In this document: positions 25,081 through 64,000 of the stretch, piece by piece
How the letters are laid out: each line of letters starts with the position of its first letter
Position numbering within the stretch: the first letter of the stretch is position 1
NCBI GenBank assembly: GCA_963575745.1
Contig: CAUYUJ010000001.1
Coordinates: forward strand, 1,550,001-1,614,000
Length of the DNA: 64,000 nucleotides
DNA from: Prorocentrum cordatum
Taxonomy: Eukaryota
Direction: 5' to 3'
The notes under the pieces: model-generated
Seen by the model: the letters and a program-made list of their open reading frames with translations, nothing else
Database searches by the model: none
What the model was told of the DNA's origin: nothing
Position numbers and translations under genes: made by a program

Positions 25081-25451
25081 CGCGACGCTAAGGCGAGAGC
25101 TACATTTTGAAAACGACCCGCCGTCAACCCGTTAAACTCTTGCAGATGTTGAGAACGAAAGCGCGCGGCGCAATGGCGAGAGCCACATTTTGAAAACCAC
25201 CCGACCTCAATCCGCTAAACGCTTGCAAATTTTGAAAACGAAAGCGTGCGGGGCAAAGGCGAGAGCCACATTTTGAAAACCGCCCGCCCAGAATCCGTGA
25301 AACTCTGGCAAATCTTGAAAGCGAATGTGCGCGGCGCTAAGGCGAGAGCCACATTTTGTGAACGACCCGCCGTCAATCCGAGAAACTCTCGCAAATGTTG
25401 AGCCTGGCCCGCCCTAAAAACTGGCCTCGGGGTGCGACAGGGAGGAGTTAT
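25081..25451 (+). repeat. ~83-bp tandem units plus conserved end, copy 2
   Basis: Four units near 25081, 25163, 25247 and 25329, with the same terminal block as 4206-4252. Confidence 0.85.
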
Positions 25452-29228: not shown

Positions 29229-30051
29229 GCCACCCGCGCAGGGGAGGGGCAGGGGTCGCCGGTCTCCTCGGGTCCTCGAGCCTCGCCCCCCCTCCTCGGC
29301 CCTCCCCACCAAGCCGCAGCGTGCGGGGCTCGGTCGGCCACCTCCCCGACGATCCCGACGGCCCCTCCCCACGACTACGAGCGACCTCCGCCCCCCCTCG
29401 ACGCCCACCGCCCACTCCACCGCTGCGCCTGCGCCGCCCGGTCCCTGGCGCTGCCGCGGGGTCCGTAGCCTCGTCCCAGGTGGCCCTTCTCTCCCGGCCT
29501 CTAGCCTGGCCTGTTTGCTTGCGTTTGCTTCCCCTCTCCTCCTTTTCCGTGCCTCCCTCCCTCCCCCTAGGGCAGCACAGCCTGCCCGGGACCAACGTGG
29601 CGGCGCGCAGGGCTCTATCGGCGCACCACATAGTTTGGCCGAGAATCTCGCGGGGGCCTAACAGCCCCGCTCGGCTCACCTCTCGCACCGGGTGCGCGGT
29701 GGGCGCGGCGTCCTCGATCCCGCACGGCCGCGTTCCTCCTCGATCCTCCTCCAGCCGTTTTGGCCGCGCTGCACGGCCCGTCGGCGGCGCCGGGGGGCCA
29801 GCGGGAGAGGGCCCTCCCCGCCGTCTCGCCTCCTCGTTGGTTGTCCTCCTCCTCCTCCTCCTCCTCCTCCTCCTCCTCCTCCTCCTCTCCTCCTCCTCCT
29901 CCTCCTCCTCCTCCTCCTCCTCCTCCTCCTCCTCCTCCTCCTGCGCTGTGGCCAGGCAGCGCGAAGGCGGCAGGGAACGATTAGCAGAGGCTCGTTCCCC
30001 CTTCGGTCTGGGTCACGGGCAGCGGGCCGCAGGCCAGAGGAGGGTATACAC

Positions 30052-30094
<43 letters not shown>

Positions 30095-30117
30095 ATATTA
30101 TATATTATTTATATACA

Positions 30118-30139
30118 TCCGTAGCCATTTTGGCTCAAG
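30118..30139 (+). other. Dinoflagellate spliced leader (DinoSL), perfect genomic copy
   Basis: TCCGTAGCCATTTTGGCTCAAG is a 22/22 match to DCCGTAGCCATTTTGGCTCAAG. It is followed by GCCATG and retrotransposon ORFs, not by an SL-RNA intron. Confidence 0.97.
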
Positions 30140-30142
30140 GCC

Positions 30143-33100
30143 ATGAACCGTCCCGACGACAGCGAGTCTTTCGGGGCGACGTCTGAGCGCGAGGGAGGTT
30201 CCGCTTTGAGGCCGCTCTCCATTTCGATTCGCCTGTGTCTGTGTTTCGGTTTCGTGCACATCTACTTCTTACATCCCCTACGGGGGCAATTGAGGTTTCA
30301 TCCCTCACATCTTTGCCAGGGCTCTGTACATCCACGTCGATGCTTGATGGCGCTGGAGACTCTTCTCAGCACAGTGGTGCAAGTGGCTGCCGTCTGGGTG
30401 GTGGGAAGGGCGGCGGTCGAGGCAGTGCAGGTGCGGCCTCAGCGTCGAAGCTCAGGCACCACTTCATCGGCGACCAGACGGAGGAGCCGAGCAGCAAAGC
30501 CAGTCGTGTGGATGCACTCATCGAGGCTGGCCCGTGGCGCCAGGCTGGCAGCGCAGCGGCAGGCTCCCCTCGGGCGGGTGGGGCCGCTGCGGCGGCTGAG
30601 GCTGGGACTCCTTCTACTGGCACTGGCTCTCCTGGGCCTACTCCTGGTACGCCTGTTGCCCAAGACGTGCGGGTGCTGCGACGCTGCGACCTGGATGACA
30701 TCCTCAGCACCCTGCGCGCCGACATCACCCAGTCGGTCCATGCCTCGGTCGCCGAGGCCATCACCAAGATGGAGCACAACATACATGAGGGCACGGCCAA
30801 AGCGGTTCGTGCACTGGCTGTTCGACAGGAAGCTTTCAATGAGGAGATGGGGCTCCGAGTCCGCGACCTCGACTCGCGGCAGGATGTCTTGGAGCGTTCA
30901 CACAGAGACATGCGTGAGGAGGTCAGGCGGCTCCAGCAGATCGTTCACCAATGTGAGCAGGCGGTGCCTGCCATTCACGACATCGCGGAGAATGCGAGTT
31001 TCACCAGGGAGCCGAACCACACTATCTACACGGCCACCACGCAGGAACCCGCTGCAAAGGAGGAGGCCCGTGCCAGCGTTCTGGAGTGGCTCGAGGCGGG
31101 AGGCTTCGCGGAGGACCAGTGGGAGACTCGAGGCGATGGACCAGGAAGGCGATTCATTGTACAATTCAAGGGCGCCGAGGGCCTCGCTGCCCGACGCGTT
31201 CAGCATGCCTTCAAGAAGCTCAGGCTGGACAACGGGGCTTGGGGGCGCTTCGAGACTGCAACTCCTGCTGGCGCTCGGACTTCCCTGTTTATCAGTCTGG
31301 ACAAGAATGCGCAGATGGTGCGCCGTGAAATTCAATCGAAGAAGCTCCTCGAGATCATCAAGCGCGACGGCGTGCCTGGGCGGTGGCGTGCGAACAGAGC
31401 ACAGGGAGTCATATATCACGGCTCCTCTCCGGTGGTCAGGGTCGTCATTCCAGACGAGGCGAGCCAAGCGACGAGCCTGGAATGGAACTATCGCATGGTC
31501 ACTGATCTTGGCGTGGACAAGTCTGCTGTCAAGGATGCCTTCGAGGAATTATTCGGCGAGGTGGAGCGAGTCCAGTGGTTTATTTAATGATCGACTCGCG
31601 TGCTGGAGGCCTCCATCTGCCTCTTCGGCACCGCTGACGATGGGCACGTGGAATACGCGCGCCCTTCTCCATCATGACCGACGCGTGGGAGGTGTTCGAG
31701 AGCACAAGCTTCAACATCTTGCACAGCACCTGAGGCGCGGCGCCATCATGGCGCTTCAGGAGGTCCACTCGACCGAGGCGGAGCTACGGCAAGCGCTTCA
31801 TCGGCTACACATTCCTCACCGTGCCTTCTGTTCCTTTCTGCCTCAGGCCGATGCGGGAGGGGTGGCTCTTGTCATTCCCTGTGATGCTGGCGTCGAGAGG
31901 CGAGCTCGCTTCTTGCGTGAGGTCCTCGCCCGTGGGAGGGTGCAGCGTGTGCGGATTTCGGGAATCCTTGCCAGCTCCTCGGCTCATGCTTGCAGCGCGG
32001 TCATCTACAATGTGCGCAATTTCAATTTGACGGATGGCGAGAGGGAGGTACTGCAGGCGCAGTTATCTGCGGATCTCACTGTGGCCGACATGGCCCCAGA
32101 GCGGGTCACAGTGTTTCTGTTGGGCGACTTCAATATCTACAAGCAGTTACCGATGTATCCGAGGGCTCCTGAGATTGACCGTCGAAGAAGTCCTGGAGAC
32201 ACGGCGCGCAGGCCGCGCGAGCAGTTCTGGAAGGAGCTCTTCAATCGAATGATGGAAATAGACAACGAGCTGCCCGCGCACTACGTGACCAACGAGTGGC
32301 AGCCCAAGCTCACGCATATAGATCGGGCCTTCGTTTCGCTGCCGAGCTGGCAGACGCTCCAGCACCACATTTGCGCGGCCACTCCTGAGTATCCCGAGCT
32401 GTTACATGATCGTGGACTGAGTGATCGCGCTCCTGTCACCACAAGCATTGAGGTGCGGAGCAGGGCTGCAGCGTCGGAGCAGAGGGCGCCCACGCATTTC
32501 TTCAAGGACCCAGAGTTCAAGCAGCAGCACGAGCGCCTCAGACTCTTGGTGGGTTGGTTTCGTTTGTCGGCGCGTGGCGGACGCAACAAGCACAAGGAGC
32601 TGATGTTCGAGGCTGCCAGGCGCGTGCGCAACCTGAGGCTGCAGCGCCCGCTCGGCGAAACCAAGCTGATGGTATTCAGGTCGATGTCGAGGGCTGTCTG
32701 GCGAGACGACGTGGCCCTTGGACGACGGCCCCTTCGCTCCTGTGAGTTCGCCCGTGCATATCTCGATGTGACTGAGACGGAGGTGAACCTGATTCGCCCC
32801 CCGACCTTCGCCAGGGACTTCGCTCAGGAGCAGCAGGCGCACTTCGAAGCGCGCATGGCGGCACTTGGCGACAGGGGGAAAAAGGCATTCGACAGCTCAT
32901 CATTTAGGGCGGTCAGCGCTCTTCGCAGGAAGCTCAATCGTCGGGCAGCTTTGTGGGCGCCCTTCGGGCGCTCGCTGAAGCTTCAGGGAATCGCGGTGCC
33001 TGCGGAGGGTGGCGGGGTCCAGGTGCTGCACGGCCAGGAGGACATGTTGGGTGCGCTGCGTGTGCATTGGGCCCCCATTTTCCAGGCCAAGGCGCAGATT

Positions 33101-34459
33101 GATGACTGGGAGAGGTTGGCCGAGCGCTACATGAAGGAGCACGCTCCGAGGCTAGCGGTGGCGGGCATCTTGCCGCCTGACAAGCGATCCCTGCTTCTGG
33201 CAGCGGCGAGGGCCAAGGAGTCCGCCCCTGGCCCAGACGGGCTGCCGTACCTGGCATGGCGGGCGTGCCCAGCGGCGGTGGCCTCCATCGAAGATGTGGT
33301 GCTTGACATAGCGGCAGGGCCACCGCCGCCCGTCGACTGGAACGATCACCTGGTGGCCTTCCTACCCAAGGGGTCTCTCGAGGAGGACCTCCCCGACGGC
33401 CTCTATCGGTCGCCAGGGTCCACTCGGGCGATTGCGCTCGAGAATTCAGATTGCAAGCTGGTGGCTGCGGCAGTCAACTTCAGCATCAAGGGTGCGGTGG
33501 AACGCGCCTCGCCCGCTCCGCTGCGAGGATTTCTGCGAGGACGGAATTTCCTTGACAACATCACGCTCTTGGACACGAAGGCTCGCGCTGCGGGCTACCA
33601 GGGCGATGTGGCCGTCGTCAAGCCTGTGCTGGCGCTGTGCGACTTTGGCGACGCGTCCCCGTCGCTGAGGGTCGAGTGGCTCTCTGCGATGATGGTCTTC
33701 TCAGGCTTCGAGGGGGATCTGCTCTTTACGCTTGCTGCGCTGTGCTGGCTGCCCACGGCGTATATTCAGATCGCTGGCATGATGGTTCACTTTGCATGCA
33801 TCACTTGCGGGCTGGCACAGGGTTGCCCGTCGTCAGGCTCACTATGGGCGATCATCATGGGCCCGTTCATTCACCACATGCAGAAGTACACGGACAGGAG
33901 TGAGTACTCGGCCCTGGGCGTGTGCGCGGACGATGTGGGAGCAGTGTTACGATCGAGGCGTCTCCTCCTTGGCATGAGGCGGGCGTTCGAGGCGCCCCGA
34001 GTGCTGGCAGGGCTTCGACTGAAGTTGGCCAAGTGCGTGCTCATCCCCCTGGACGGCCCCGTAACGGAGGAGTCCAAGTCGGAGCTCGTGAAGTGGCTGC
34101 AGGACTGGCTCCCGAGCTGGGCCACCATGTCGGTTAAGGACTGCGCCGGGTACTTGGGGTACATGATTGGGCCAGGAGCATCGGAGCTTGACGTATGGAG
34201 GAAGGCAGCCGCGAAGTGGCAGGCTCGTGTCCTCGACCTGGCCCAGTGCGGGGCGCGTGCCTCGCTCTCGGCCAAGCTCTACAACCAAAGGATCCTTCCC
34301 GTGCTGGGGCACCTCCAGCAGCTGGCGCGGGTGCCCAAGGAACTGCTGGAGCGGGAGGCGTGGGCGATCACGAAGATTTGGCACATGCCGCCGCAGAGCT
34401 TGTCCAGAGACGACTTACGCAGTCTAGGGCAGTGGGCTCCCTCCTCGAGGATCAGGTGA
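30143..34459 (+). CDS. LINE ORF2: AP-like endonuclease + reverse transcriptase (domains begin ~31630)
   Basis: APE motifs: GTWNTR, ALQEVH, GGVAL, LLGDFN, IDRAF, SDRAPV (catalytic H replaced by R). RT motifs: SAPGPDGLPY, FLPKG, RAIALENSDCK, GFLRGR, DFGDASPSL, GLAQGCPSSG, CADD (33923-34), GLRLKLAKC, YLGY. Confidence 0.92.
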   Translation: MNRPDDSESFGATSEREGGSALRPLSISIRLCLCFGFVHIYFLHPLRGQLRFHPSHLCQGSVHPRRCLMALETLLSTVVQVAAVWVVGRAAVEAVQVRPQRRSSGTTSSATRRRSRAAKPVVWMHSSRLARGARLAAQRQAPLGRVGPLRRLRLGLLLLALALLGLLLVRLLPKTCGCCDAATWMTSSAPCAPTSPSRSMPRSPRPSPRWSTTYMRARPKRFVHWLFDRKLSMRRWGSESATSTRGRMSWSVHTETCVRRSGGSSRSFTNVSRRCLPFTTSRRMRVSPGSRTTLSTRPPRRNPLQRRRPVPAFWSGSRREASRRTSGRLEAMDQEGDSLYNSRAPRASLPDAFSMPSRSSGWTTGLGGASRLQLLLALGLPCLSVWTRMRRWCAVKFNRRSSSRSSSATACLGGGVRTEHRESYITAPLRWSGSSFQTRRAKRRAWNGTIAWSLILAWTSLLSRMPSRNYSARWSESSGLFNDRLACWRPPSASSAPLTMGTWNTRALLHHDRRVGGVREHKLQHLAQHLRRGAIMALQEVHSTEAELRQALHRLHIPHRAFCSFLPQADAGGVALVIPCDAGVERRARFLREVLARGRVQRVRISGILASSSAHACSAVIYNVRNFNLTDGEREVLQAQLSADLTVADMAPERVTVFLLGDFNIYKQLPMYPRAPEIDRRRSPGDTARRPREQFWKELFNRMMEIDNELPAHYVTNEWQPKLTHIDRAFVSLPSWQTLQHHICAATPEYPELLHDRGLSDRAPVTTSIEVRSRAAASEQRAPTHFFKDPEFKQQHERLRLLVGWFRLSARGGRNKHKELMFEAARRVRNLRLQRPLGETKLMVFRSMSRAVWRDDVALGRRPLRSCEFARAYLDVTETEVNLIRPPTFARDFAQEQQAHFEARMAALGDRGKKAFDSSSFRAVSALRRKLNRRAALWAPFGRSLKLQGIAVPAEGGGVQVLHGQEDMLGALRVHWAPIFQAKAQIDDWERLAERYMKEHAPRLAVAGILPPDKRSLLLAAARAKESAPGPDGLPYLAWRACPAAVASIEDVVLDIAAGPPPPVDWNDHLVAFLPKGSLEEDLPDGLYRSPGSTRAIALENSDCKLVAAAVNFSIKGAVERASPAPLRGFLRGRNFLDNITLLDTKARAAGYQGDVAVVKPVLALCDFGDASPSLRVEWLSAMMVFSGFEGDLLFTLAALCWLPTAYIQIAGMMVHFACITCGLAQGCPSSGSLWAIIMGPFIHHMQKYTDRSEYSALGVCADDVGAVLRSRRLLLGMRRAFEAPRVLAGLRLKLAKCVLIPLDGPVTEESKSELVKWLQDWLPSWATMSVKDCAGYLGYMIGPGASELDVWRKAAAKWQARVLDLAQCGARASLSAKLYNQRILPVLGHLQQLARVPKELLEREAWAITKIWHMPPQSLSRDDLRSLGQWAPSSRIR
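30340..31587 (+). CDS. LINE ORF1 protein (G/A-rich N-terminus, coiled coil, RRM-like C-terminal part)
   Basis: Part of open frame 30235..31587, first ATG at 30340. Heptad segment LRVRDLDSRQDVLERSHRDMREEVRRLQQIV. Positioned directly upstream of the APE domain. Confidence 0.8.
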   Translation: MLDGAGDSSQHSGASGCRLGGGKGGGRGSAGAASASKLRHHFIGDQTEEPSSKASRVDALIEAGPWRQAGSAAAGSPRAGGAAAAAEAGTPSTGTGSPGPTPGTPVAQDVRVLRRCDLDDILSTLRADITQSVHASVAEAITKMEHNIHEGTAKAVRALAVRQEAFNEEMGLRVRDLDSRQDVLERSHRDMREEVRRLQQIVHQCEQAVPAIHDIAENASFTREPNHTIYTATTQEPAAKEEARASVLEWLEAGGFAEDQWETRGDGPGRRFIVQFKGAEGLAARRVQHAFKKLRLDNGAWGRFETATPAGARTSLFISLDKNAQMVRREIQSKKLLEIIKRDGVPGRWRANRAQGVIYHGSSPVVRVVIPDEASQATSLEWNYRMVTDLGVDKSAVKDAFEELFGEVERVQWFI

Positions 34460-35302
34460 ATGCTCGCCACGGGGCTCGCGTCACTCATGAGAGCGGCTGC
34501 CTCCGCGGTCACCAACTGGCAGAGCCTCCACGTATGGCTGGAGGAGCAGACGGTGGACCACGGCTCCCTCCTGGCTATCGGCCAGGCGCGTCGCGCGCCA
34601 GTCCACTGGAGGACGCAGCCAGCGGTTGCGGGCCTGGCTGCCGCCTCCGAGGGCTTCGTGAATGAGGGCAGGATCGCGCACCATGCCGCCCTGGCGTGGC
34701 GTGCTCTGGCCGAGGAGCGCGCCGCTGCCGAGCAGCGGGCAGCGCGCGTGCGGATCCAGAAAACGATTTCTCGTTCCCTGCACTCCTCCCTCTTTCCTGA
34801 CGTCCTTCCCGTGGTGCTGGCGCGGCGTCTGAAGTCATGGGGCCTCGAGGTTGTCCGCCACTCCTGGCCTCCTCTCCGTGCTATCCTTGAGCAGGTCAGC
34901 CCGGCCTGGCAGAGTGCTGTTCTGAAGACAATAGCAGGGGCTTGGCTAACATCGGCCAGGCTTCATACCGCTGGCGGAGTACAGTCATGTAAATTCGGCT
35001 GTCGTGAGCCCCCGTTGATTCCAGCCCCTGATGTCTTTGCCCATTATATGCGGTGCGATGCTTTATGGGGTCTGGCCTACGCTAGGGACCGTGGCCCCCC
35101 GAATTGTGCGCTGACTAGGATTGGGCTGGATGGTGCCCCGACTCTTGAAACTGTGGAGGCCATAATCATGGCGTTCCACATGTATAACACCGCACGTGTT
35201 TCCCTTCCGCCGTCGCCCCACCAAGAGGAGTGGACTGGCCATCTGTGCGAAATTCGACGGGCTGCTGTGGCGCTCGTGGAGTTGACTAGAGTGCCCGCGT
35301 AG
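34460..35302 (+). pseudogene. C-terminal remainder of LINE ORF2 after a single in-frame TGA
   Basis: Same frame as 30143..34459. Contains WLTSARLH..CKFGC..DVFAHYMRCDALW, a CCHC-type zinc-binding motif typical of ORF2 ends. Confidence 0.82.
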
Positions 35303-35350
35303 GCCTCGGAAGGACCCCTGTGGCGCCTCTCATGTACGAGCGATATATAT

Positions 35351-35393
<43 letters not shown>

Positions 35394-35410
35394 ATATATA
35401 TACACAAACA

Positions 35411-35620
35411 TACGTAGCACACCGCAGTTGCGGATAAGAGTGAGGGGGCTACGAGGACGTCGTCAATCGGGCGAGGCTCTGAAGAAGCCCGCCGCAGGCG
35501 CCGTTTTTTTAATTTTGAAATATAATTTATGCATTGTGTAAATATGATTATATATATATATTATGCATTGAACAATAATTTATGCATTCAAGTATATAAT
35601 TTACTAATTATACATGTGAG

Positions 35621-35666
<46 letters not shown>

Positions 35667-36675
35667 TAAAAAGACAATGTATGCGTTGAACCCGCCTCAG
35701 GCGCCGATTTTTTCGTTAAAGCAATGTGGGTGGATCGCGGGGTGGGTCGCTGGTGGGTCGCGGGCCGGGTCGCGGGTGGGTCGCGGGCCGGGTCGCGGGC
35801 TGGGTCGCGGGGGGTCGCGTATGGGTCGCGCATCGCGGGTGGGTCGCGGGGTGGGTCGCGGGTGGGTCGCGGGCTGGGTCGCGGGCTGGGTCGCGGGGTG
35901 GGTCGCGGGGTAGGTCGCGGGTGGGTCGCGGGGTGGGTCGAAGGGTGGGTCCGGGGTGTGTCGCGGGCGGGTCACGGGGTGGGTCGCGGGCGGGTCACGG
36001 GGTGGGTCGCGGGTGGGTCGCGGATGGGTCGCGGGCTGGGTCTCGGGGTGGATCGCGGGGTGGGTCGCGGGGTGGGTCGCGGGGTGGGTCGCAGGGGGGA
36101 CGACGACAACAACGACACCACCACCAACAGCAACAAACAAACAAACAATCAAACACATCAACAGACAAACAAACAACAACACCAGCAACAACAGCAACAA
36201 CGACAATAACAGCAACAACCACAACAGCAACAACAACAACAACAACAACAGTAACAATCACACTCACAATCAACAACAACAACAACAACACTAACAGCAA
36301 CACACAACAACAACACCACCACCACCAACAACAACTACACCAACACCAACACCAACGCCAACATCAACAACAACACTCATTTTAAGACTGTTTGCCCTTC
36401 TCTGATCGGGTGTCCAATAACGCGTATTTCCCAAACCCTCGATACCCGCCCTCTTCGTCTTCGATCGAACCCCTTTTGGGGGGTATACCTTTCTTCCCTG
36501 CAGGCCGGGTCCCGGCAAGCGGCGGGGCGGCCGCGGACCGTCGGCCTGGCCAGCAGCGGCGCTGATCGGCGGGGCGGCCGCGGACCGTCGACCCGACCCC
36601 AAGAGGGACGGGCAGGCGACCGACCACGACGACGACGACGTCGACGGCGGCGACGACGACGTCGACGACGACGGC

Positions 36676-36707
<32 letters not shown>

Positions 36708-38112
36708 GCGAAAGAGAGCGCGAGAGAGAACGACAGCAGGGCCGCAAGGACACGAAGTAGGCCACGAAGGGCGACAGCGGGGCCACGAAGGACATGCATA
36801 TGGGGCCACCACGGGCGCGAACGAGCGGGGGCCACGAAGGGCATACGTATACTGGGCCGCGGAAAGCAAGGACGGGGCCACTGAGGGCAGCAACGGGGCC
36901 ACGAAAGGCAGCGAGGGGGCCATGAAGGGCGACAGCGGGGCCACGAAGGGCATGCGCATGGGGCCACGACGGGCGCGAAAGATCGGGGGCCACGAAGGGC
37001 AGATCATGCGGGGCCACAGAAGGCACCGACGGGGCCATTGAAGGTAGCAGCTGGGCCACGTAGGAGAGTGAGGAGGCCACAAACGGCGACAGCGGGGCCA
37101 CGAATGGCATGCACATGGGACCACAACGGGCGCGAACGAACGGGGGCCACGAAGGGCATACGTATACTGGGCCGCGGAGGGCAAGGACGGGGCCACTGAG
37201 GGCAGCAACGGGGCCACGAAGGGCAGCGAGGGGGCCACGAAGGGCGACAGCGGGGCCACGAAGGACATGCATATGGGGCCACCACGGGCGCGAACGATCG
37301 GGGGCCACGAAGGGCATACATATATGGGGCCACGAAAAGCAGCGAGGGGGCCACGAAGGGCAGTGAGGGGGCCGCGAAGGGCTGCAACGGGGCCACGAAG
37401 GGCTGCGACGTGGCCACGAAGGGCAGCGAGGGGGCCACGAAGGGCTACAACGGGGCCGCGAAACAAAGCGATAGGGGGCCACGAAGGGCTGCAAGGGGGC
37501 CACGAAGGGCAGCGAGGAGGCCACGAGGGGCTGCAACGGGTCCGCGACCCGATTCTTCGGTAATCTGTGAGTGAGTCCTAATCGTGAGCGCGACTCCTGG
37601 GTGCCTGGGTGTCCGGAGCGCGGTGCTTGAATACATTGCAAGAGTGTCCAACGCGAGGACGCTATTCTTCAGTAGATTGCAAGCGAGTCTCCAGCGAGTG
37701 TGACTCCAGAGCGCCGGGAGAGAGATTCCTGAATAAATTGTAAGGAAGTCCCAAGCGAGAACGCGATTCCTGAATCAAACGCAAGGAAGTCTCGGGCGGG
37801 AGCGGGGGTCCTGGGTAAATCGTGAGGAAGTCTTGGGCGGGAGCCGTTGTTGTTGTAACCTGGGGGCCAACGACACAGTTTGACGCTCAAGACTTTCCCT
37901 GATAAAAAACAGGGTGCGAGCCCCAGGAAGGGCACTTCAGTAGAGAAAAAACAATGTGCACTAGACGGGGGGATCAACAATACTTATTCTTCTGGAGTGA
38001 GAGATCAAAAACAACAACAACAATGCAACAAACATAATCCTCACCACGGATCCCAACTAGCGCCACGCACCCAGGGACAACAATGACCGATCGCCCCCCT
38101 CACTCGGACAAT
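35411..38112 (+). mobile_element. Same element, copy 2, with AT-rich expansion and a ~1.6-kb insertion in its (CAA)n tract
   Basis: Same head and tail as 17685-18343. The extra segment ~36381-38008 contains the 21-bp satellite. Confidence 0.75.
36740..37540. repeat. 21-bp satellite (GGGGCCACGAAGGGCAGCGAG-type)
   Basis: Direct reading. Confidence 0.9.
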
Positions 38113-41065: not shown

Positions 41066-41114
41066 GGTCGAAGGTGACCATCGACAGACACGGGAGATGT
41101 CGTCATCGTTTCGT

Positions 41115-41139
41115 CCTCCCCCTCCTCCTCCTCCTCCTC

Positions 41140-41171
<32 letters not shown>

Positions 41172-41990
41172 TCCTCCCCCTCCCCCCCCCTCCTCCTCCT
41201 CCTCCTCCTCCTCCTCCTCCTCCTCCTCCTCCTCCTCCTCCTCCTCCTCCTCCTCCTCCTCTCCTCCTCCTCCTCCTCAAGGTACGTTCACTCCTCCTCC
41301 TCCTCCTCCTCCTCCCCCCCTTCTCCTCCTCCTCCTCCTCCTCCTCCTCCTCCTCCTCCCTCCTCCTCCTCCTCCTCCTCCTCCTTCTCCCCCCCTTCTT
41401 CTCCTCCTCCTCCTCCTCCTCCTCCTCCTCTCCTCCTCCTCCTCCTCCTCCTCCTCCTCCTCCTCCTCCTCCTCCTCCTCCTCCTCCTCCCCTCCTCCTC
41501 CCCTCCCTTCCTCCCTCCTCCTCCTCCTCCTCCTCCTCCTCCTCCTCCTCCTCCTCCTCCTCCTCCTCCTCCTCCTCCTCTCCTCCTCCTCCTCCTCCTC
41601 CTCCTCCCTCCTCCTCCTCCTCCTCCTCCTCTCCTCCTCCTCCTCCTCCTCCTCCTCCTCCTCCTCCTCCTCCTCCTCCTCCTCCACACCCTCCCTCGAA
41701 CTTCCTCTTCCTCCGCCTCCTCCTCCTCCTCGGGGTCCGGAGGGCCAGTGGCCCGGAATCGGCCGCCAGTTGGCCGAGATCGGCCGTAGACGAGCAATGC
41801 GCGCTGTCGCAAGGGCACAAAGCCTGAAAGATTGAGCGATCCTCCTCCTCCTCCCTCCTCCTCCTCCTCCTCCTCCTCCTCCACACCCTCCTCCTCCTCC
41901 TCCTCCTCCTCCTCCTCCCTCCTCCTCCTCTCCTCCTCCTCCTCCTCCTCCTCCTCCTCCTCCTCCTCCTCCACACCCTCCCTCCCTCCG
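41115..41990. repeat. Large (CCT)n expansion
   Basis: Direct reading. Other (GGA/CCT)n tracts lie near 3540, 10220-10535, 25470-25660, 27340-27430, 29845-29940 and 53290-53420. Confidence 0.95.
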
Positions 41991-63200: not shown

Positions 63201-63541
63201 AACGCGAACTGGGCGGACGCGAGCCACTACGACGCTCACCGGCGGTTGCTCCAACCCGCCCGTAGCCATGTTGGTTAAAGGCCGTGGCGCCCCGAGGGTC
63301 TCGACTAGGCGCATTGTCTCTGAGGGAGGTGCTTGGCAAAGCTAAAATCTACGCAGACGAACGGCTTCCCGACCCGACGCGCGCTCGCGTCGGCGCGTGG
63401 AGCGCGCGGATGGCGGGCGACGGCAGCGGCTGGCAGCCGGTGGCAGGCGGCAAGGGCAAGAAGCTCGCGTTCGGCAGCGGGCGCGGGGGCGCAGTGGCCC
63501 AAGCCGGGCGAGGCAGCCCAGTGGACGCGCGGCGCCTGCGG

Positions 63542-64000
63542 CACGGCCGCGTTGCGGAGTCGGCGGCGTGGGAGGCGTTAGCGGCACGTGACGCGGTCGA
63601 CCCGCACTCCGAGGATCCTGATCTCGATGCGGTGGTCACGGCCATGTTGGACTTGATCAAGGCCTTTGAGAATTTGTCCTTGGTCAAGCTGTTTCAGGCG
63701 GGCCTCCGCTGGGGTTTCTCGCCGCCCATCCTCGCTGTGGTTATGTCCATCTTCGCGATGGCCAGGGCCCTAGTCGTCGACGGCTGCTTCGAAGACGAGG
63801 CGGGGGCCCAGACGGCCATTGTGGTCGGCAGCAAGTGCTCCGTGGCCTTGCTTCGCATGTTGTTGAGGGAGGGAATGGATTGCCTGGTCGCGCGCTACCC
63901 GTGCGTCGACTGGAAGCTGTCCGCGGACGACCTTTGTGCGCAACAGCGAGTGGCGGAGGCCTCCATGACCGATTTTGCCAAGGTTGATCTGGCCTTTTCG
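63542..64000 (+). mobile_element. Non-LTR retrotransposon RT fragment (second family), running off the window
   Basis: My translation: GRVAESAAWEALA..MLDLIKAFENL..WGFSPPIL..AIVVGSKCSV..WKLSADDL, corresponding to RT motifs 3-5. Confidence 0.8.

What the first reader, a model, noticed from the sequence alone, without database searches (positions are those of the whole stretch)
30045..35402. LINE retrotransposon whose 5' end is an intact spliced leader: possible promoter-less, trans-splicing-dependent life cycle
Seen: a 22/22 DinoSL is the first non-(TA) sequence of a near-complete ORF1/APE-RT element, and the element lies sense-oriented inside a 15-kb host intron. Known: DinoSL is added to mRNAs by trans-splicing, and SL relics mark retrocopied genes. 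SLACS/CZAR/CRE and NeSL elements instead insert into SL-RNA genes, which is not the case here because no SL-RNA intron or array is present. Inference: this copy was reverse-transcribed from the element's own SL-capped mRNA right up to the cap. The embedded SL supplies AG acceptors (30123-24, 30138-39), so each new copy could be cut out of host read-through pre-mRNA by trans-splicing without needing an internal promoter.
Basis: partly seen in the sequence, partly recalled or inferred. Interest (0 to 1): 0.85.

Follow-up and report, generated by a model that had tools for sequence, protein, structure and literature searches.

The report
LINE retrotransposon headed by spliced leader
A jumping gene in a dinoflagellate genome starts with the exact 22-letter leader that these cells splice onto their messenger RNAs, and three distant relatives from other samples do the same, so this group of elements appears to copy itself from leader-capped RNA.

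Summary
An exact 22/22 DinoSL (30118-30139, +) lies between a TA-rich repeat (30045-30117) and a nearly intact LINE. The LINE has an L1-ORF1p-like ORF1 (30340-31587) and an APE-RT-CCHC ORF2 (31640-35302) with one in-frame TGA, then a 40-nt 3'UTR and (AT)n.

It is not a one-off. I fetched 80 metagenome loci by ORF2 similarity alone. Four carry a complete ORF1 homologue, and three of those (L001, L004, L005; ORF2 only 27-30% identical to the window's) have an exact DinoSL on the coding strand. It lies 87-223 nt upstream of ORF1 and directly follows TA-rich simple sequence. L004 also carries a stacked 15-nt relic, the mark of repeated trans-splicing and retroposition.

So an L1-like clade of dinoflagellate LINEs transposes from SL-trans-spliced mRNA that is reverse-transcribed to its first nucleotide.

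The "promoter-less, read-through-dependent" step is a reasonable inference but untested, because no RNA run was listed. The 15-kb host-intron claim could not be checked.

For this copy alone, a template switch onto free SL RNA is not excluded.

I found no description of SL-headed LINEs in five literature searches. Separately, the ORF2 frame has no stop codon across the whole of ORF1 in four elements.

The parts
30045..30117 (.). TA-rich simple repeat directly upstream of the SL; target-site sequence and possibly the upstream copy of a long target-site duplication
   Evidence: TRF period 2, 33.5 copies; 97% A+T in the 40 nt before the SL against 38% for the window
30118..30139 (+). complete dinoflagellate spliced leader (22/22), the 5' end of the element; AG at 30123-24 and 30138-39
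   Evidence: consensus from PMC7245778
30140..30339 (+). 200-nt 5'UTR; the first AUG, at 30143-30145, is in the ORF2 frame and opens 1,438 codons
30340..31587 (+). ORF1, 415 aa: disordered N-terminus, long coiled-coil helix, then alpha/beta domains; L1 ORF1p-like fold
   Evidence: model; Foldseek top 9 hits are all human L1 ORF1p chains, E 5e-5 to 2e-3
31640..35302 (+). ORF2, about 1,220 codons, interrupted by one in-frame TGA
31646..32353 (+). apurinic/apyrimidinic-type endonuclease domain of ORF2
   Evidence: Pfam Exo_endo_phos E 4.7e-8; family profile against PDB hits exonuclease III and L1 endonuclease
33413..34099 (+). reverse transcriptase domain of ORF2
   Evidence: Pfam RVT_1 E 7.7e-9; family profile against PDB: human L1 ORF2p E 9.3e-39, R2 E 1e-27
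34457..34459 (+). in-frame TGA inside ORF2, at an alignment column that holds Ser or Ala in relatives; this copy is probably inactive
34988..35056 (+). C-terminal Cys-X3-Cys...His-X3-Cys motif of ORF2, conserved in relatives
35303..35342 (+). short 3'UTR
35343..35402 (.). (AT)n at the 3' end: microsatellite tail and/or the downstream copy of the target repeat
35408..35419 (+). ACATACGTAGCA in the 3' flank, 10 of 12 identical to the 5' junction ACATCCGTAGCC; possible end of a long target-site duplication or junction microhomology (found after the fact, weak)
   Evidence: read directly; no formal test was run

Best explanation
This is a nearly intact member of an L1-like clade of dinoflagellate LINEs. 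ORF1 is of the coiled-coil/RRM type. ORF2 has APE, RT and CCHC parts, and there is no poly(A) tail. The transposition intermediate of this clade is the element's own mRNA after DinoSL trans-splicing. Target-primed reverse transcription at a TA-rich microsatellite ran to the first nucleotide of the leader, so the new DNA copy begins with a complete SL placed against the target. Shown: the anatomy; the exact SL at the precise 5' boundary in 4 of 5 full-length elements that are only 27-32% identical in ORF2; a stacked relic in one of them; and TA-rich repeats at the 5' junction. Inferred: the element carries only what lies downstream of the trans-splice site plus the SL, so a daughter copy can regenerate the same mRNA only in one way. 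Transcription must enter from upstream (host read-through, or a start in or before the SL), and a new SL must be joined at an AG. That AG is either the last one of the embedded SL (30138-39, giving no stacking) or the internal one (30123-24, giving SL plus relic as in L004). Trans-splicing would then do for this LINE what an internal promoter does in L1Tc, or a 5' ribozyme in L1Tc and R2.
For: The exact SL at 30118-30139 sits between the TA repeat and the LINE. Pfam finds APE and RT. The ORF1 fold matches L1 ORF1p. The family profile scores best against L1 ORF2p, 136 bits, versus 99.6 for R2. Loci were fetched by ORF2 similarity only: 605 stretches matched a pattern, 146 were relatives, and 80 were kept. 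tblastn finds a complete ORF1 in 4 of those 80 (L001, L004, L005, L008) and a remnant in L028. In all 340,905 bases of the 80 loci, both strands, the 21-mer occurs exactly 3 times. All three are on the coding strand, in L001, L004 and L005, and lie 87, 223 and 178 nt upstream of the ORF1 ATG. L004 has SL plus a perfect 15-nt relic (0 of 2000 shuffles reach that score). ORF1s are mutually 24-32% identical and ORF2s 27-32%, so these are separate lineages and not copies of one insertion. A (TA)5-or-longer run lies within 25 nt upstream of the SL in the window, L004 and L005. The 40 nt upstream in L001 are 88% A+T. Only 0.16% of locus positions and 0.63% of window positions lie that close to such a run. 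In the same run, 427 contigs at 80-100% identity lie on the stretch, so the family is multicopy in the source organism.
Against: There is no RNA evidence at all; no RNA holder was listed. Trans-splicing of this element, the acceptor used and read-through transcription are therefore all inferred. L008 has a complete ORF1 and 330 nt upstream of it, with no SL within the contig. The window copy and L001 have no relic, so there is no sign that their progenitors were themselves SL-headed copies spliced at the internal AG. A master copy without an SL head would give the same picture. Almost all dinoflagellate mRNAs are trans-spliced, so an SL head may be a passive tag with no role in the next cycle. 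For the window copy, the SL is followed by GC, and summed word depth is 418 at 30161, 97.6 at 30181 and 9.5 at 30231. The high-depth stretch may thus be about as long as the 50-60-nt SL RNA cited in PMC5029490. Only four SL-headed elements were seen. I could not establish whether the metagenome records come from DNA or RNA.
Confidence: 0.7

Rival explanations
1. The SL is a passive tag, or itself a promoter. It was acquired because every mRNA is trans-spliced, but daughter copies are transcribed from a start at or near SL nucleotide 1. That start would be driven by an internal promoter in the 5'UTR, or by the SL acting as an intragenic promoter element. The latter is reported for a nematode SL RNA gene, which I recall and did not check. 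No read-through and no new trans-splicing would be needed.
For: Two of 4 SL-headed elements (the window and L001) have a single SL and no relic, as expected if the head is simply copied each cycle. TA-rich sequence directly upstream could help initiation.
Against: The stacked relic in L004, and relic-like remains in L005 (114 of 2000 shuffles reach their score), show that at least some SL-headed copies were trans-spliced again. The 5'UTRs share no detectable similarity across the four elements (sequences printed, read by eye; no alignment of them was run), so there is no sign of a conserved promoter. The SL is exact in all four while everything else has diverged, which fits renewal from SL RNA at each cycle.
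Confidence: 0.2
2. Template-switch chimera, for this copy only. At the end of reverse transcription the enzyme jumped from the LINE RNA onto a free SL RNA (exon plus short intron). In that case 30118 to about 30175 is an SL RNA retrocopy fused to the LINE, analogous to U6/L1 chimeras (recalled).
For: GC follows the SL, and SL-gene introns in Fugacium start with GU or GC (PMC6616646 section 3.3). Summed word depth is 418 at 30161, where all 8 contigs carry C against the window's A, then 97.6 at 30181 and 9.5 at 30231; the next bin, inside ORF1, has 5.7. In a second organism of the same study, six high-depth 31-mers share the exact 27 nt at 30116-30142.
Against: In L001, L004 and L005 the SL is followed by TT, CC and CT, which are not intron starts. 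None of the Fugacium SL-gene sequences in the supplement holds GGCTCAAGGCC. Word depth of contigs is not a copy number (tool note). The stretch folds no better than shuffles (z 0.29). A shared 5' leader of related LINEs or of non-autonomous elements would give the same depth picture.
Confidence: 0.08
3. Site-specific insertion into an SL RNA gene (SLACS/CZAR/CRE/NeSL type), or chance juxtaposition of a LINE with the SL relic of an unrelated retrogene.
For: None beyond the presence of an SL next to a LINE.
Against: The endonuclease is an N-terminal APE, not a C-terminal restriction-like one. The SL is whole and lies on one side only. There is no array; only one exact SL occurs in 64 kb. The flank is a TA repeat. 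The same arrangement recurs in 3 unrelated contigs, which rules out chance.
Confidence: 0.01

Closest known systems
L1/Tx1-group LINEs (APE-type, two ORFs)
   Same: ORF1 has a coiled coil plus an RRM/CTD-like fold. ORF2 has an N-terminal APE, an RT and a C-terminal Cys/His motif. An inter-ORF spacer of about 50 nt is present. Insertion at simple repeats recalls the microsatellite-specific Tx1-group elements (recalled, not checked).
   Different: There is no poly(A); the 3' end abuts (AT)n. The 5' end is the host's spliced leader, not an internal promoter. The ORF2 frame is open across the whole of ORF1. Pfam Transposase_22 was not detected. Clade placement by RT phylogeny was not done.
DinoSL-tagged retrogenes ('recycled cDNAs' of dinoflagellates; Slamovits and Keeling 2008, as cited in PMC6050394 and PMC12014239)
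   Same: An SL or relic is encoded in DNA at the 5' end of a retroposed unit. The stacked relic CCATTTTGGCTCAAG in L004 is the same signature.
   Different: Here the retroposed RNA is the retrotransposon's own bicistronic mRNA, in several deep lineages. That makes the tag part of the replication cycle of the machinery itself.
SLACS, CZAR, CRE (trypanosomatids) and NeSL-1 (nematodes)
   Same: These are LINEs physically associated with spliced-leader sequence.
   Different: Those elements insert into SL RNA genes and use a restriction-like endonuclease (recalled). This one has an APE, a whole SL on its 5' side only, a TA-repeat target and no SL array.
L1Tc/ingi (Pr77 promoter plus HDV-like ribozyme) and R2 (5' ribozyme)
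   Same: They face the same problem of making a defined 5' end for a LINE RNA in a genome with polycistronic or co-transcription. L1Tc lives in another organism that trans-splices all its mRNAs (abstracts of PMC3383444, PMC1874656 and PMC3185411, search listing).
   Different: By those abstracts, L1Tc makes unspliced transcripts from an internal promoter and cuts its 5' end with a ribozyme. Here the 5' end is the SL itself.
Symbiodinium LINEs described by de Mendoza et al. 2018 (SymbioLINE-Dnmt and LINEs without DNMT)
   Same: They are abundant two-ORF LINEs of Symbiodiniaceae, with many old and active subfamilies (passages read).
   Different: That paper's main text does not contain 'spliced leader' (0 occurrences). 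ORF1 here is L1-ORF1p-like, not a DNMT.

Membership tests
APE-type LINE, L1-like group | N-terminal apurinic/apyrimidinic-like endonuclease in ORF2 | tested here: met
   Pfam Exo_endo_phos 33.5 bits against cut-off 24.5; family profile hits exonuclease III and L1 endonuclease chains
APE-type LINE, L1-like group | LINE-type reverse transcriptase | tested here: met
   Pfam RVT_1 36 bits against cut-off 29.6; family profile against human L1 ORF2p E 9.3e-39; 3,811 relatives at E 1e-3 or better
APE-type LINE, L1-like group | ORF1 of the coiled-coil + RRM + CTD type | tested here: met
   Model: helix 115-207, alpha/beta 229-414, mean pLDDT 67.8. Foldseek top 9 hits are all human L1 ORF1p chains, E 5e-5 to 2e-3, but TM-scores are only 0.21-0.41. 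No Pfam Transposase_22 hit.
APE-type LINE, L1-like group | RT phylogeny places it inside the L1 clade | not tested
   No reference set of LINE clades was available. The only indication is a better score to L1 ORF2p (136 bits) than to R2 (99.6 bits).
APE-type LINE, L1-like group | poly(A) 3' tail | tested here: not met
   The 3'UTR is followed by (AT)n, not by an A run
SL-gene-specific LINEs (SLACS/CZAR/CRE/NeSL) | restriction-like endonuclease downstream of RT (feature recalled) | tested here: not met
   The endonuclease is an N-terminal APE. The C-terminus has only a Cys/His motif.
SL-gene-specific LINEs (SLACS/CZAR/CRE/NeSL) | insertion inside an SL RNA gene or array, with SL gene sequence on both sides (feature recalled) | tested here: not met
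   One exact SL in 64 kb. The upstream flank is a TA repeat. The 3' flank holds only a 6-nt CGTAGC.
DinoSL-tagged retrocopies | SL or relic encoded in DNA at the 5' end of the retroposed unit | tested here: met
   22/22 in the window; exact in L001, L004 and L005
DinoSL-tagged retrocopies | stacked relics after repeated rounds | tested here: inconclusive
   Perfect relic in L004 and relic-like remains in L005 (114 of 2000 shuffles reach the score). None in the window or L001, where 1183 and 1444 of 2000 shuffles reach the score.
small-RNA/LINE template-switch chimeras (U6/L1 type) | a whole small RNA, including its part 3' of the SL exon, fused to the LINE 5' end | tested here: inconclusive
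   GC follows the SL, and word depth is high over 30140 to about 30180 in run X1. There is no match to the Fugacium SL genes, and this species' SL RNA gene is not known to me.

The most novel reading that the evidence does not exclude
A whole clade of dinoflagellate L1-like LINEs has given up a promoter of its own. Each copy is transcribed only as part of longer host transcripts. It is cut out and capped by DinoSL trans-splicing at an AG supplied by the SL that the previous cycle left in the DNA, and is then copied back to the cap. The same enzymes, shown here to copy SL-capped RNA to its first nucleotide, would be the long-sought source of the SL-tagged retrogenes that make up about a fifth of dinoflagellate genes. 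The stop-free ORF2 frame over ORF1 would be part of the same adaptation to translation from an SL-capped bicistronic RNA.
Probability: 0.4. Interest if true: 0.85.

Novelty: new variant of a known kind. Interest (0 to 1): 0.7.

Why it matters
LINEs must rebuild their 5' end at every cycle. The known solutions are internal promoters and 5' ribozymes. A clade whose full-length copies start with the host's spliced leader would add a third solution: the 5' end and cap come from trans-splicing.

It also bears on an open question in dinoflagellate biology. A 2018 review states that it is unknown which retroelement type mediates the massive retroposition of SL-tagged genes, and it favours LTR elements (PMC6050394, passage read). 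Here LINE-encoded machinery is caught with SL-capped RNA copied to its first nucleotide and integrated, in four independent lineages. The question becomes directly testable. One can compare the junctions of SL-tagged retrogenes with those of these LINEs, looking for TA-rich targets, long target-site duplications and microsatellite tails.

Finally, the SL head is a simple marker for finding full-length, recently active LINEs in dinoflagellate assemblies.

Tried and rejected
- **No whole genome.** None is held for the window, so a census of copies in the source genome was impossible. There is no second copy in the window.
- **Protein look-ups that gave nothing.** The protein atlas gave only generic APE/RT clusters for ORF2 and unnamed clusters for ORF1.
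- **Sequencing runs.** No RNA holder was listed; 3 runs of one study were listed and one holds the stretch.
- **Read laying.** No contig joins across the element, so no empty site was seen. Several bins have little or no cover. The contig sequences themselves are not shown, so 5' ends of other copies in the source organism could not be tabulated.
- **Exact 21-mer of 30140-30160.** 0 matches in viral contigs and 0 in metagenome contigs.
- **Relatives in other collections.** None in viral contigs or in prokaryote genome contigs.
- **Fugacium SL-gene supplement.** GGCTCAAGGCC occurs 0 times.
- **RNA fold of 30118-30230.** Not more stable than shuffles (z 0.29).
- **Similarity of the two SL-downstream stretches (30140- and 63281-).** Marginal: 23 of 2000 shuffles and 4 of 458 genomic windows reach the score, so I rejected it as evidence.
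- **ORF at 63410-64000.** BLASTP E 5e-4 to the RT region of P0137, but hhalign against the family profile gave probability 0.35%. It is not established as RT.
- **Target-site duplications.** Short candidate matches in L001 (11 of 12), L004 (10 of 11) and L005 are not significant on their own by my rough estimate; no test was run.
- **N-terminal extensions read in the ORF2 frame.** Not conserved as protein (best E 0.009).
- **SL-encoded peptides.** Absent from the 150 listed relatives.
- **Host-gene search.** Pfam on 148 ORFs outside the element gave only low-complexity hits.
- **Earlier findings of this scan.** Nothing was found.
- **Zhang et al. 2007 (PMC1838650).** Not held.

Full report
**Observation.**
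- The window reads ...TATATACA TCCGTAGCCATTTTGGCTCAAG GCCATGAACC... with the 22-nt leader at 30118-30139 on the + strand.
- The 21-mer without the variable first letter occurs exactly once in the window. A second site at 63260-63280 has 3 mismatches. 0.01 matches are expected from 100 dinucleotide shuffles.
- The sequence fits the published consensus DCCGTAGCCATTTTGGCTCAAG with D = T (passage read in PMC7245778).
- Upstream lies a TA-rich simple repeat at 30045-30117.

**Anatomy of the element.**
- A 200-nt 5'UTR follows the SL.
- ORF1 runs from ATG 30340 to TAA 31587 (415 aa). A spacer of about 50 nt follows. ORF2 runs from ATG 31640 to TAG 35302.
- ORF2 carries Pfam Exo_endo_phos and RVT_1, both above their curated cut-offs.
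- ORF2 has one in-frame TGA at 34457-59. The 280 codons after it are colinear with residues 912-1149 of a full-length relative (E 3e-12). They contain the family's Cys-X3-Cys...His-X3-Cys motif. The TGA therefore interrupts a conserved ORF, and this copy is probably dead.
- After the stop come 40 nt of 3'UTR and then (AT)n at 35343-35402. There is no poly(A).
- ORF1 has no Pfam family above cut-off.
- A model built on an alignment of five ORF1s shows a disordered N-terminus (1-113), one long helix (115-207) and alpha/beta domains (229-414). Mean pLDDT is 67.8.
- Its nine best Foldseek matches in PDB are all chains of human LINE-1 ORF1p: eight of the trimer and one of the RRM-CTD solution structure. 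E-values run from 5e-5 to 2e-3, though TM-scores are low at 0.21-0.41.
- A profile of 18 ORF2 relatives scores best against human L1 ORF2p (E 9.3e-39, 136 bits), ahead of R2 proteins (E 1e-27, 99.6 bits).
- I therefore call the element L1-like. A proper RT phylogeny was not possible without reference clades.

- No genome is held for the window and the window has no second copy.
- The exhaustive protein search found 3,811 ORF2 relatives at E 1e-3 or better. The best full-length ones are about 30% identical.
- With an alignment of the window's ORF2 and five of these relatives, I fetched loci from metagenome contigs. 605 stretches matched a peptide pattern, 146 encode a relative, and the best 80 were kept. 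The selection used ORF2 only and was blind to the 5' end.
- tblastn with the ORF1s shows that 4 of the 80 loci hold a complete ORF1 (L001, L004, L005, L008). One more (L028) holds a remnant.
- In all 340,905 bases of the 80 loci, on both strands, the exact 21-mer occurs three times. Allowing up to 5 mismatches adds only the relic overlap in L004 and one 5-mismatch site on the opposite strand of L047.
- The three exact sites are in L001, L004 and L005, on the coding strand. They lie 87, 223 and 178 nt upstream of the ORF1 ATG.
- Each SL is directly preceded by sequence that is not SL, so it is encoded in a contiguous template and not added to an RNA end.
- L004 reads GCCGTAGCCATTTTGGCTCAAG followed at once by CCATTTTGGCTCAAG. 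That is the relic produced when a DNA-encoded SL is trans-spliced at its internal AG and retroposed again (0 of 2000 shuffles reach the score; relic definition from PMC12014239).
- L005 has relic-like remains (114 of 2000 shuffles reach the score). The window and L001 have none.
- L008 has 330 nt upstream of ORF1 without an SL. The contig may end inside the 5'UTR, or the copy may lack a head.
- Counting the window, 4 of 5 elements with a complete ORF1 are SL-headed.
- They are not recent copies of each other. ORF1s are 24-32% identical and ORF2s 27-32%, and G+C of ORF1 ranges from 0.50 to 0.62.

**Target.**
- A (TA)5-or-longer run lies within 25 nt upstream of the SL in the window, L004 and L005. 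The 40 nt upstream in L001 are 88% A+T.
- Only 0.16% of positions in the loci and 0.63% in the window lie that close to such a run.
- L055 is a 5'-truncated relative without an SL. It is bracketed by direct repeats of about 50 nt that include (AT)n and the words AAGCATGAT. This suggests long target-site duplications at TA microsatellites.
- In the window, both flanks are TA blocks of about 76 nt. The 3' flank contains ACATACGTAGCA at 35408-35419, which is 10 of 12 identical to the 5' junction ACATCCGTAGCC. That may be the end of a long duplication or a junction microhomology. I noticed it after the fact and give it little weight.

**Mechanism.**
- *What is shown.* Full-length DNA copies in several deep lineages begin with nucleotide 1 of the host leader, set against target DNA, and at least one lineage went through two SL additions. 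The simplest reading is that the transposition intermediate is the element's own trans-spliced mRNA, reverse-transcribed to its end.
- *What is inferred.* The element can carry to a new site only what lies 3' of its trans-splice site, plus the SL. A daughter copy can therefore regenerate the same mRNA only if transcription starts upstream of the acceptor. That means in the flank (host read-through) or at the very start of the embedded SL.
- If the last AG of the embedded SL (30138-39) is used, the product is identical and nothing stacks. If the internal AG (30123-24) is used, a relic stacks, as in L004.
- No RNA data could be obtained. The promoter-less step stays an inference, and I put it near 0.4-0.5.
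- The main rival is that the SL head is a passive tag and copies start transcription at or near SL nucleotide 1.

**An unexplained point about this copy.**
- In the one run that holds the locus, summed word depth is 418 at 30161. All 8 contigs there read C where the window has A. Depth is 97.6 at 30181, 9.5 at 30231 and 5.7 in the next bin. The ORF2 body has 7-45.
- In another organism of the same study, six 31-mers of high depth share the exact 27 nt at 30116-30142.
- The tool warns that word depth is not a copy number. Still, the first 40-60 nt behind the SL seem to belong to something much more abundant than the LINE.
- One candidate is the SL RNA itself. It is 50-60 nt long according to PMC5029490, and introns of Fugacium SL genes start with GU or GC (PMC6616646). 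The window has GC there. That would make this copy a template-switch chimera.
- The other candidate is a 5' leader shared with other LINE subfamilies or non-autonomous elements.
- Against the chimera reading: the other three SL heads are followed by TT, CC and CT, which are not intron starts. The Fugacium supplement has no GGCTCAAGGCC. The stretch has no special fold.
- I give the chimera reading about 0.08, and only for this copy.

**Host context.** I could not check the claim of a 15-kb host intron. Of the 176 ORFs of 90 aa or more that lie outside the element and pass a low-complexity filter (386 listed in all), I scanned 148 against Pfam and found only low-complexity hits. There are no transcripts.

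**Literature.**
- Five full-text searches turned up no description of LINEs headed by a spliced leader. Nor did passages read in PMC12014239, PMC3229502, PMC7245778, PMC8045281, PMC6616646, PMC6050394, PMC10235124, PMC3942190, PMC11453091, PMC5890265 and PMC5029490.
- The paper that describes Symbiodinium LINEs does not contain 'spliced leader' in its main text.
- The 2018 retrogene review says the retroelement type behind dinoflagellate retroposition is unknown and favours LTR elements.
- Subscription-journal papers and bioRxiv supplements were not searchable, so prior description elsewhere cannot be excluded.

**Seen in passing.**
- In the window element and in L001, L005 and L008, the ORF2 reading frame (+1 relative to ORF1) has no stop codon over the whole of ORF1 (996-1287 nt). 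Codon-order shuffles expect 5.6-10.4 stops, and at most 1 of 2000 shuffles per element has none. The +2 frame has 9-24 stops.
- In the window, the first AUG of the mRNA (30143, 3 nt behind the SL) is in that frame and opens 1,438 codons. In L001 the second AUG does the same, opening 1,585 codons.
- The peptide read in that frame is not conserved between elements. What is kept is the absence of stops.

**Verdict.**
- The promoter-less cycle is plausible but untested.
- The host-intron context is unknown.
- I rate the finding a new variant of known kinds (L1-like LINE plus SL-tagged retroposition), with interest 0.7.

Noticed in passing
window 30143-31639 (ORF2 frame over ORF1); L001 158-1267; L005 250-1341; L008 2-1663: The ORF2 reading frame has zero stop codons across the entire ORF1 in four elements that are 24-32% identical. 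Shuffles expect 5.6-10.4 stops, and at most 1 of 2000 per element has none. The other frame has 9-24 stops. In the window the first AUG after the SL (30143) opens this frame for 1,438 codons. The peptide in that frame is not conserved. This suggests ORF2 is translated as a giant ORF that overlaps ORF1, or by frameshifting at no fixed site.
   Followed up: partly
window 63259-63280 and 63410-64000: A second, decayed SL-like site has 3 mismatches to the 21-mer. About 130 nt downstream an ORF starts and runs off the window. That ORF has a weak BLASTP hit to the RT region of one ORF2 relative (E 5e-4), but hhalign against the family profile is not significant. It is possibly an older SL-headed retroelement or retrogene.
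   Followed up: partly
window 30140-30200: In run X1, summed word depth just behind the SL is 418 at 30161, where all 8 contigs read C against the window's A. It falls to 97.6 at 30181 and 9.5 at 30231. The cause is unexplained: SL RNA gene sequence, or a 5' leader shared with other elements.
   Followed up: partly
window 35441-35512 and 35691-35713: A stretch about 100 nt downstream of the LINE has very high word depth in run X1 (885 in its bin). Many contigs there carry other letters between two arms. The motif CCCGCCNCAGGCGCCGNTTTTTT occurs twice, 203 nt apart and 91% alike, each time after a TA repeat. It may be an abundant short repeat ending in a hairpin and a T run.
   Followed up: partly
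L055 9540-9590 and 12720-12773: A 5'-truncated relative of the LINE, with no SL, is bracketed by direct repeats of about 50 nt containing (AT)n followed by AAGCATGAT. This is a likely long target-site duplication at a TA microsatellite.
   Followed up: partly
L008 5318-5527; L028 6574-6700: Other relatives abut microsatellites: a run of ATC/CAT-type triplets follows the L008 ORF2, and (TA)n plus a TCATA-type 5-nt repeat cuts into L028. Tails or targets made of simple repeats may be general in this clade.
   Followed up: no
window 41114-41731, 36760-37531, 25081-25401, 35728-36099: The surroundings are dense in tandem repeats. These are (TCC) in about 208 copies, a 158-nt unit in 4.2 copies built of 21-mers, an 83-nt unit in 3.9 copies, and a 12-nt GGGTGGGTCGCG array in 31 copies.
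   Followed up: no
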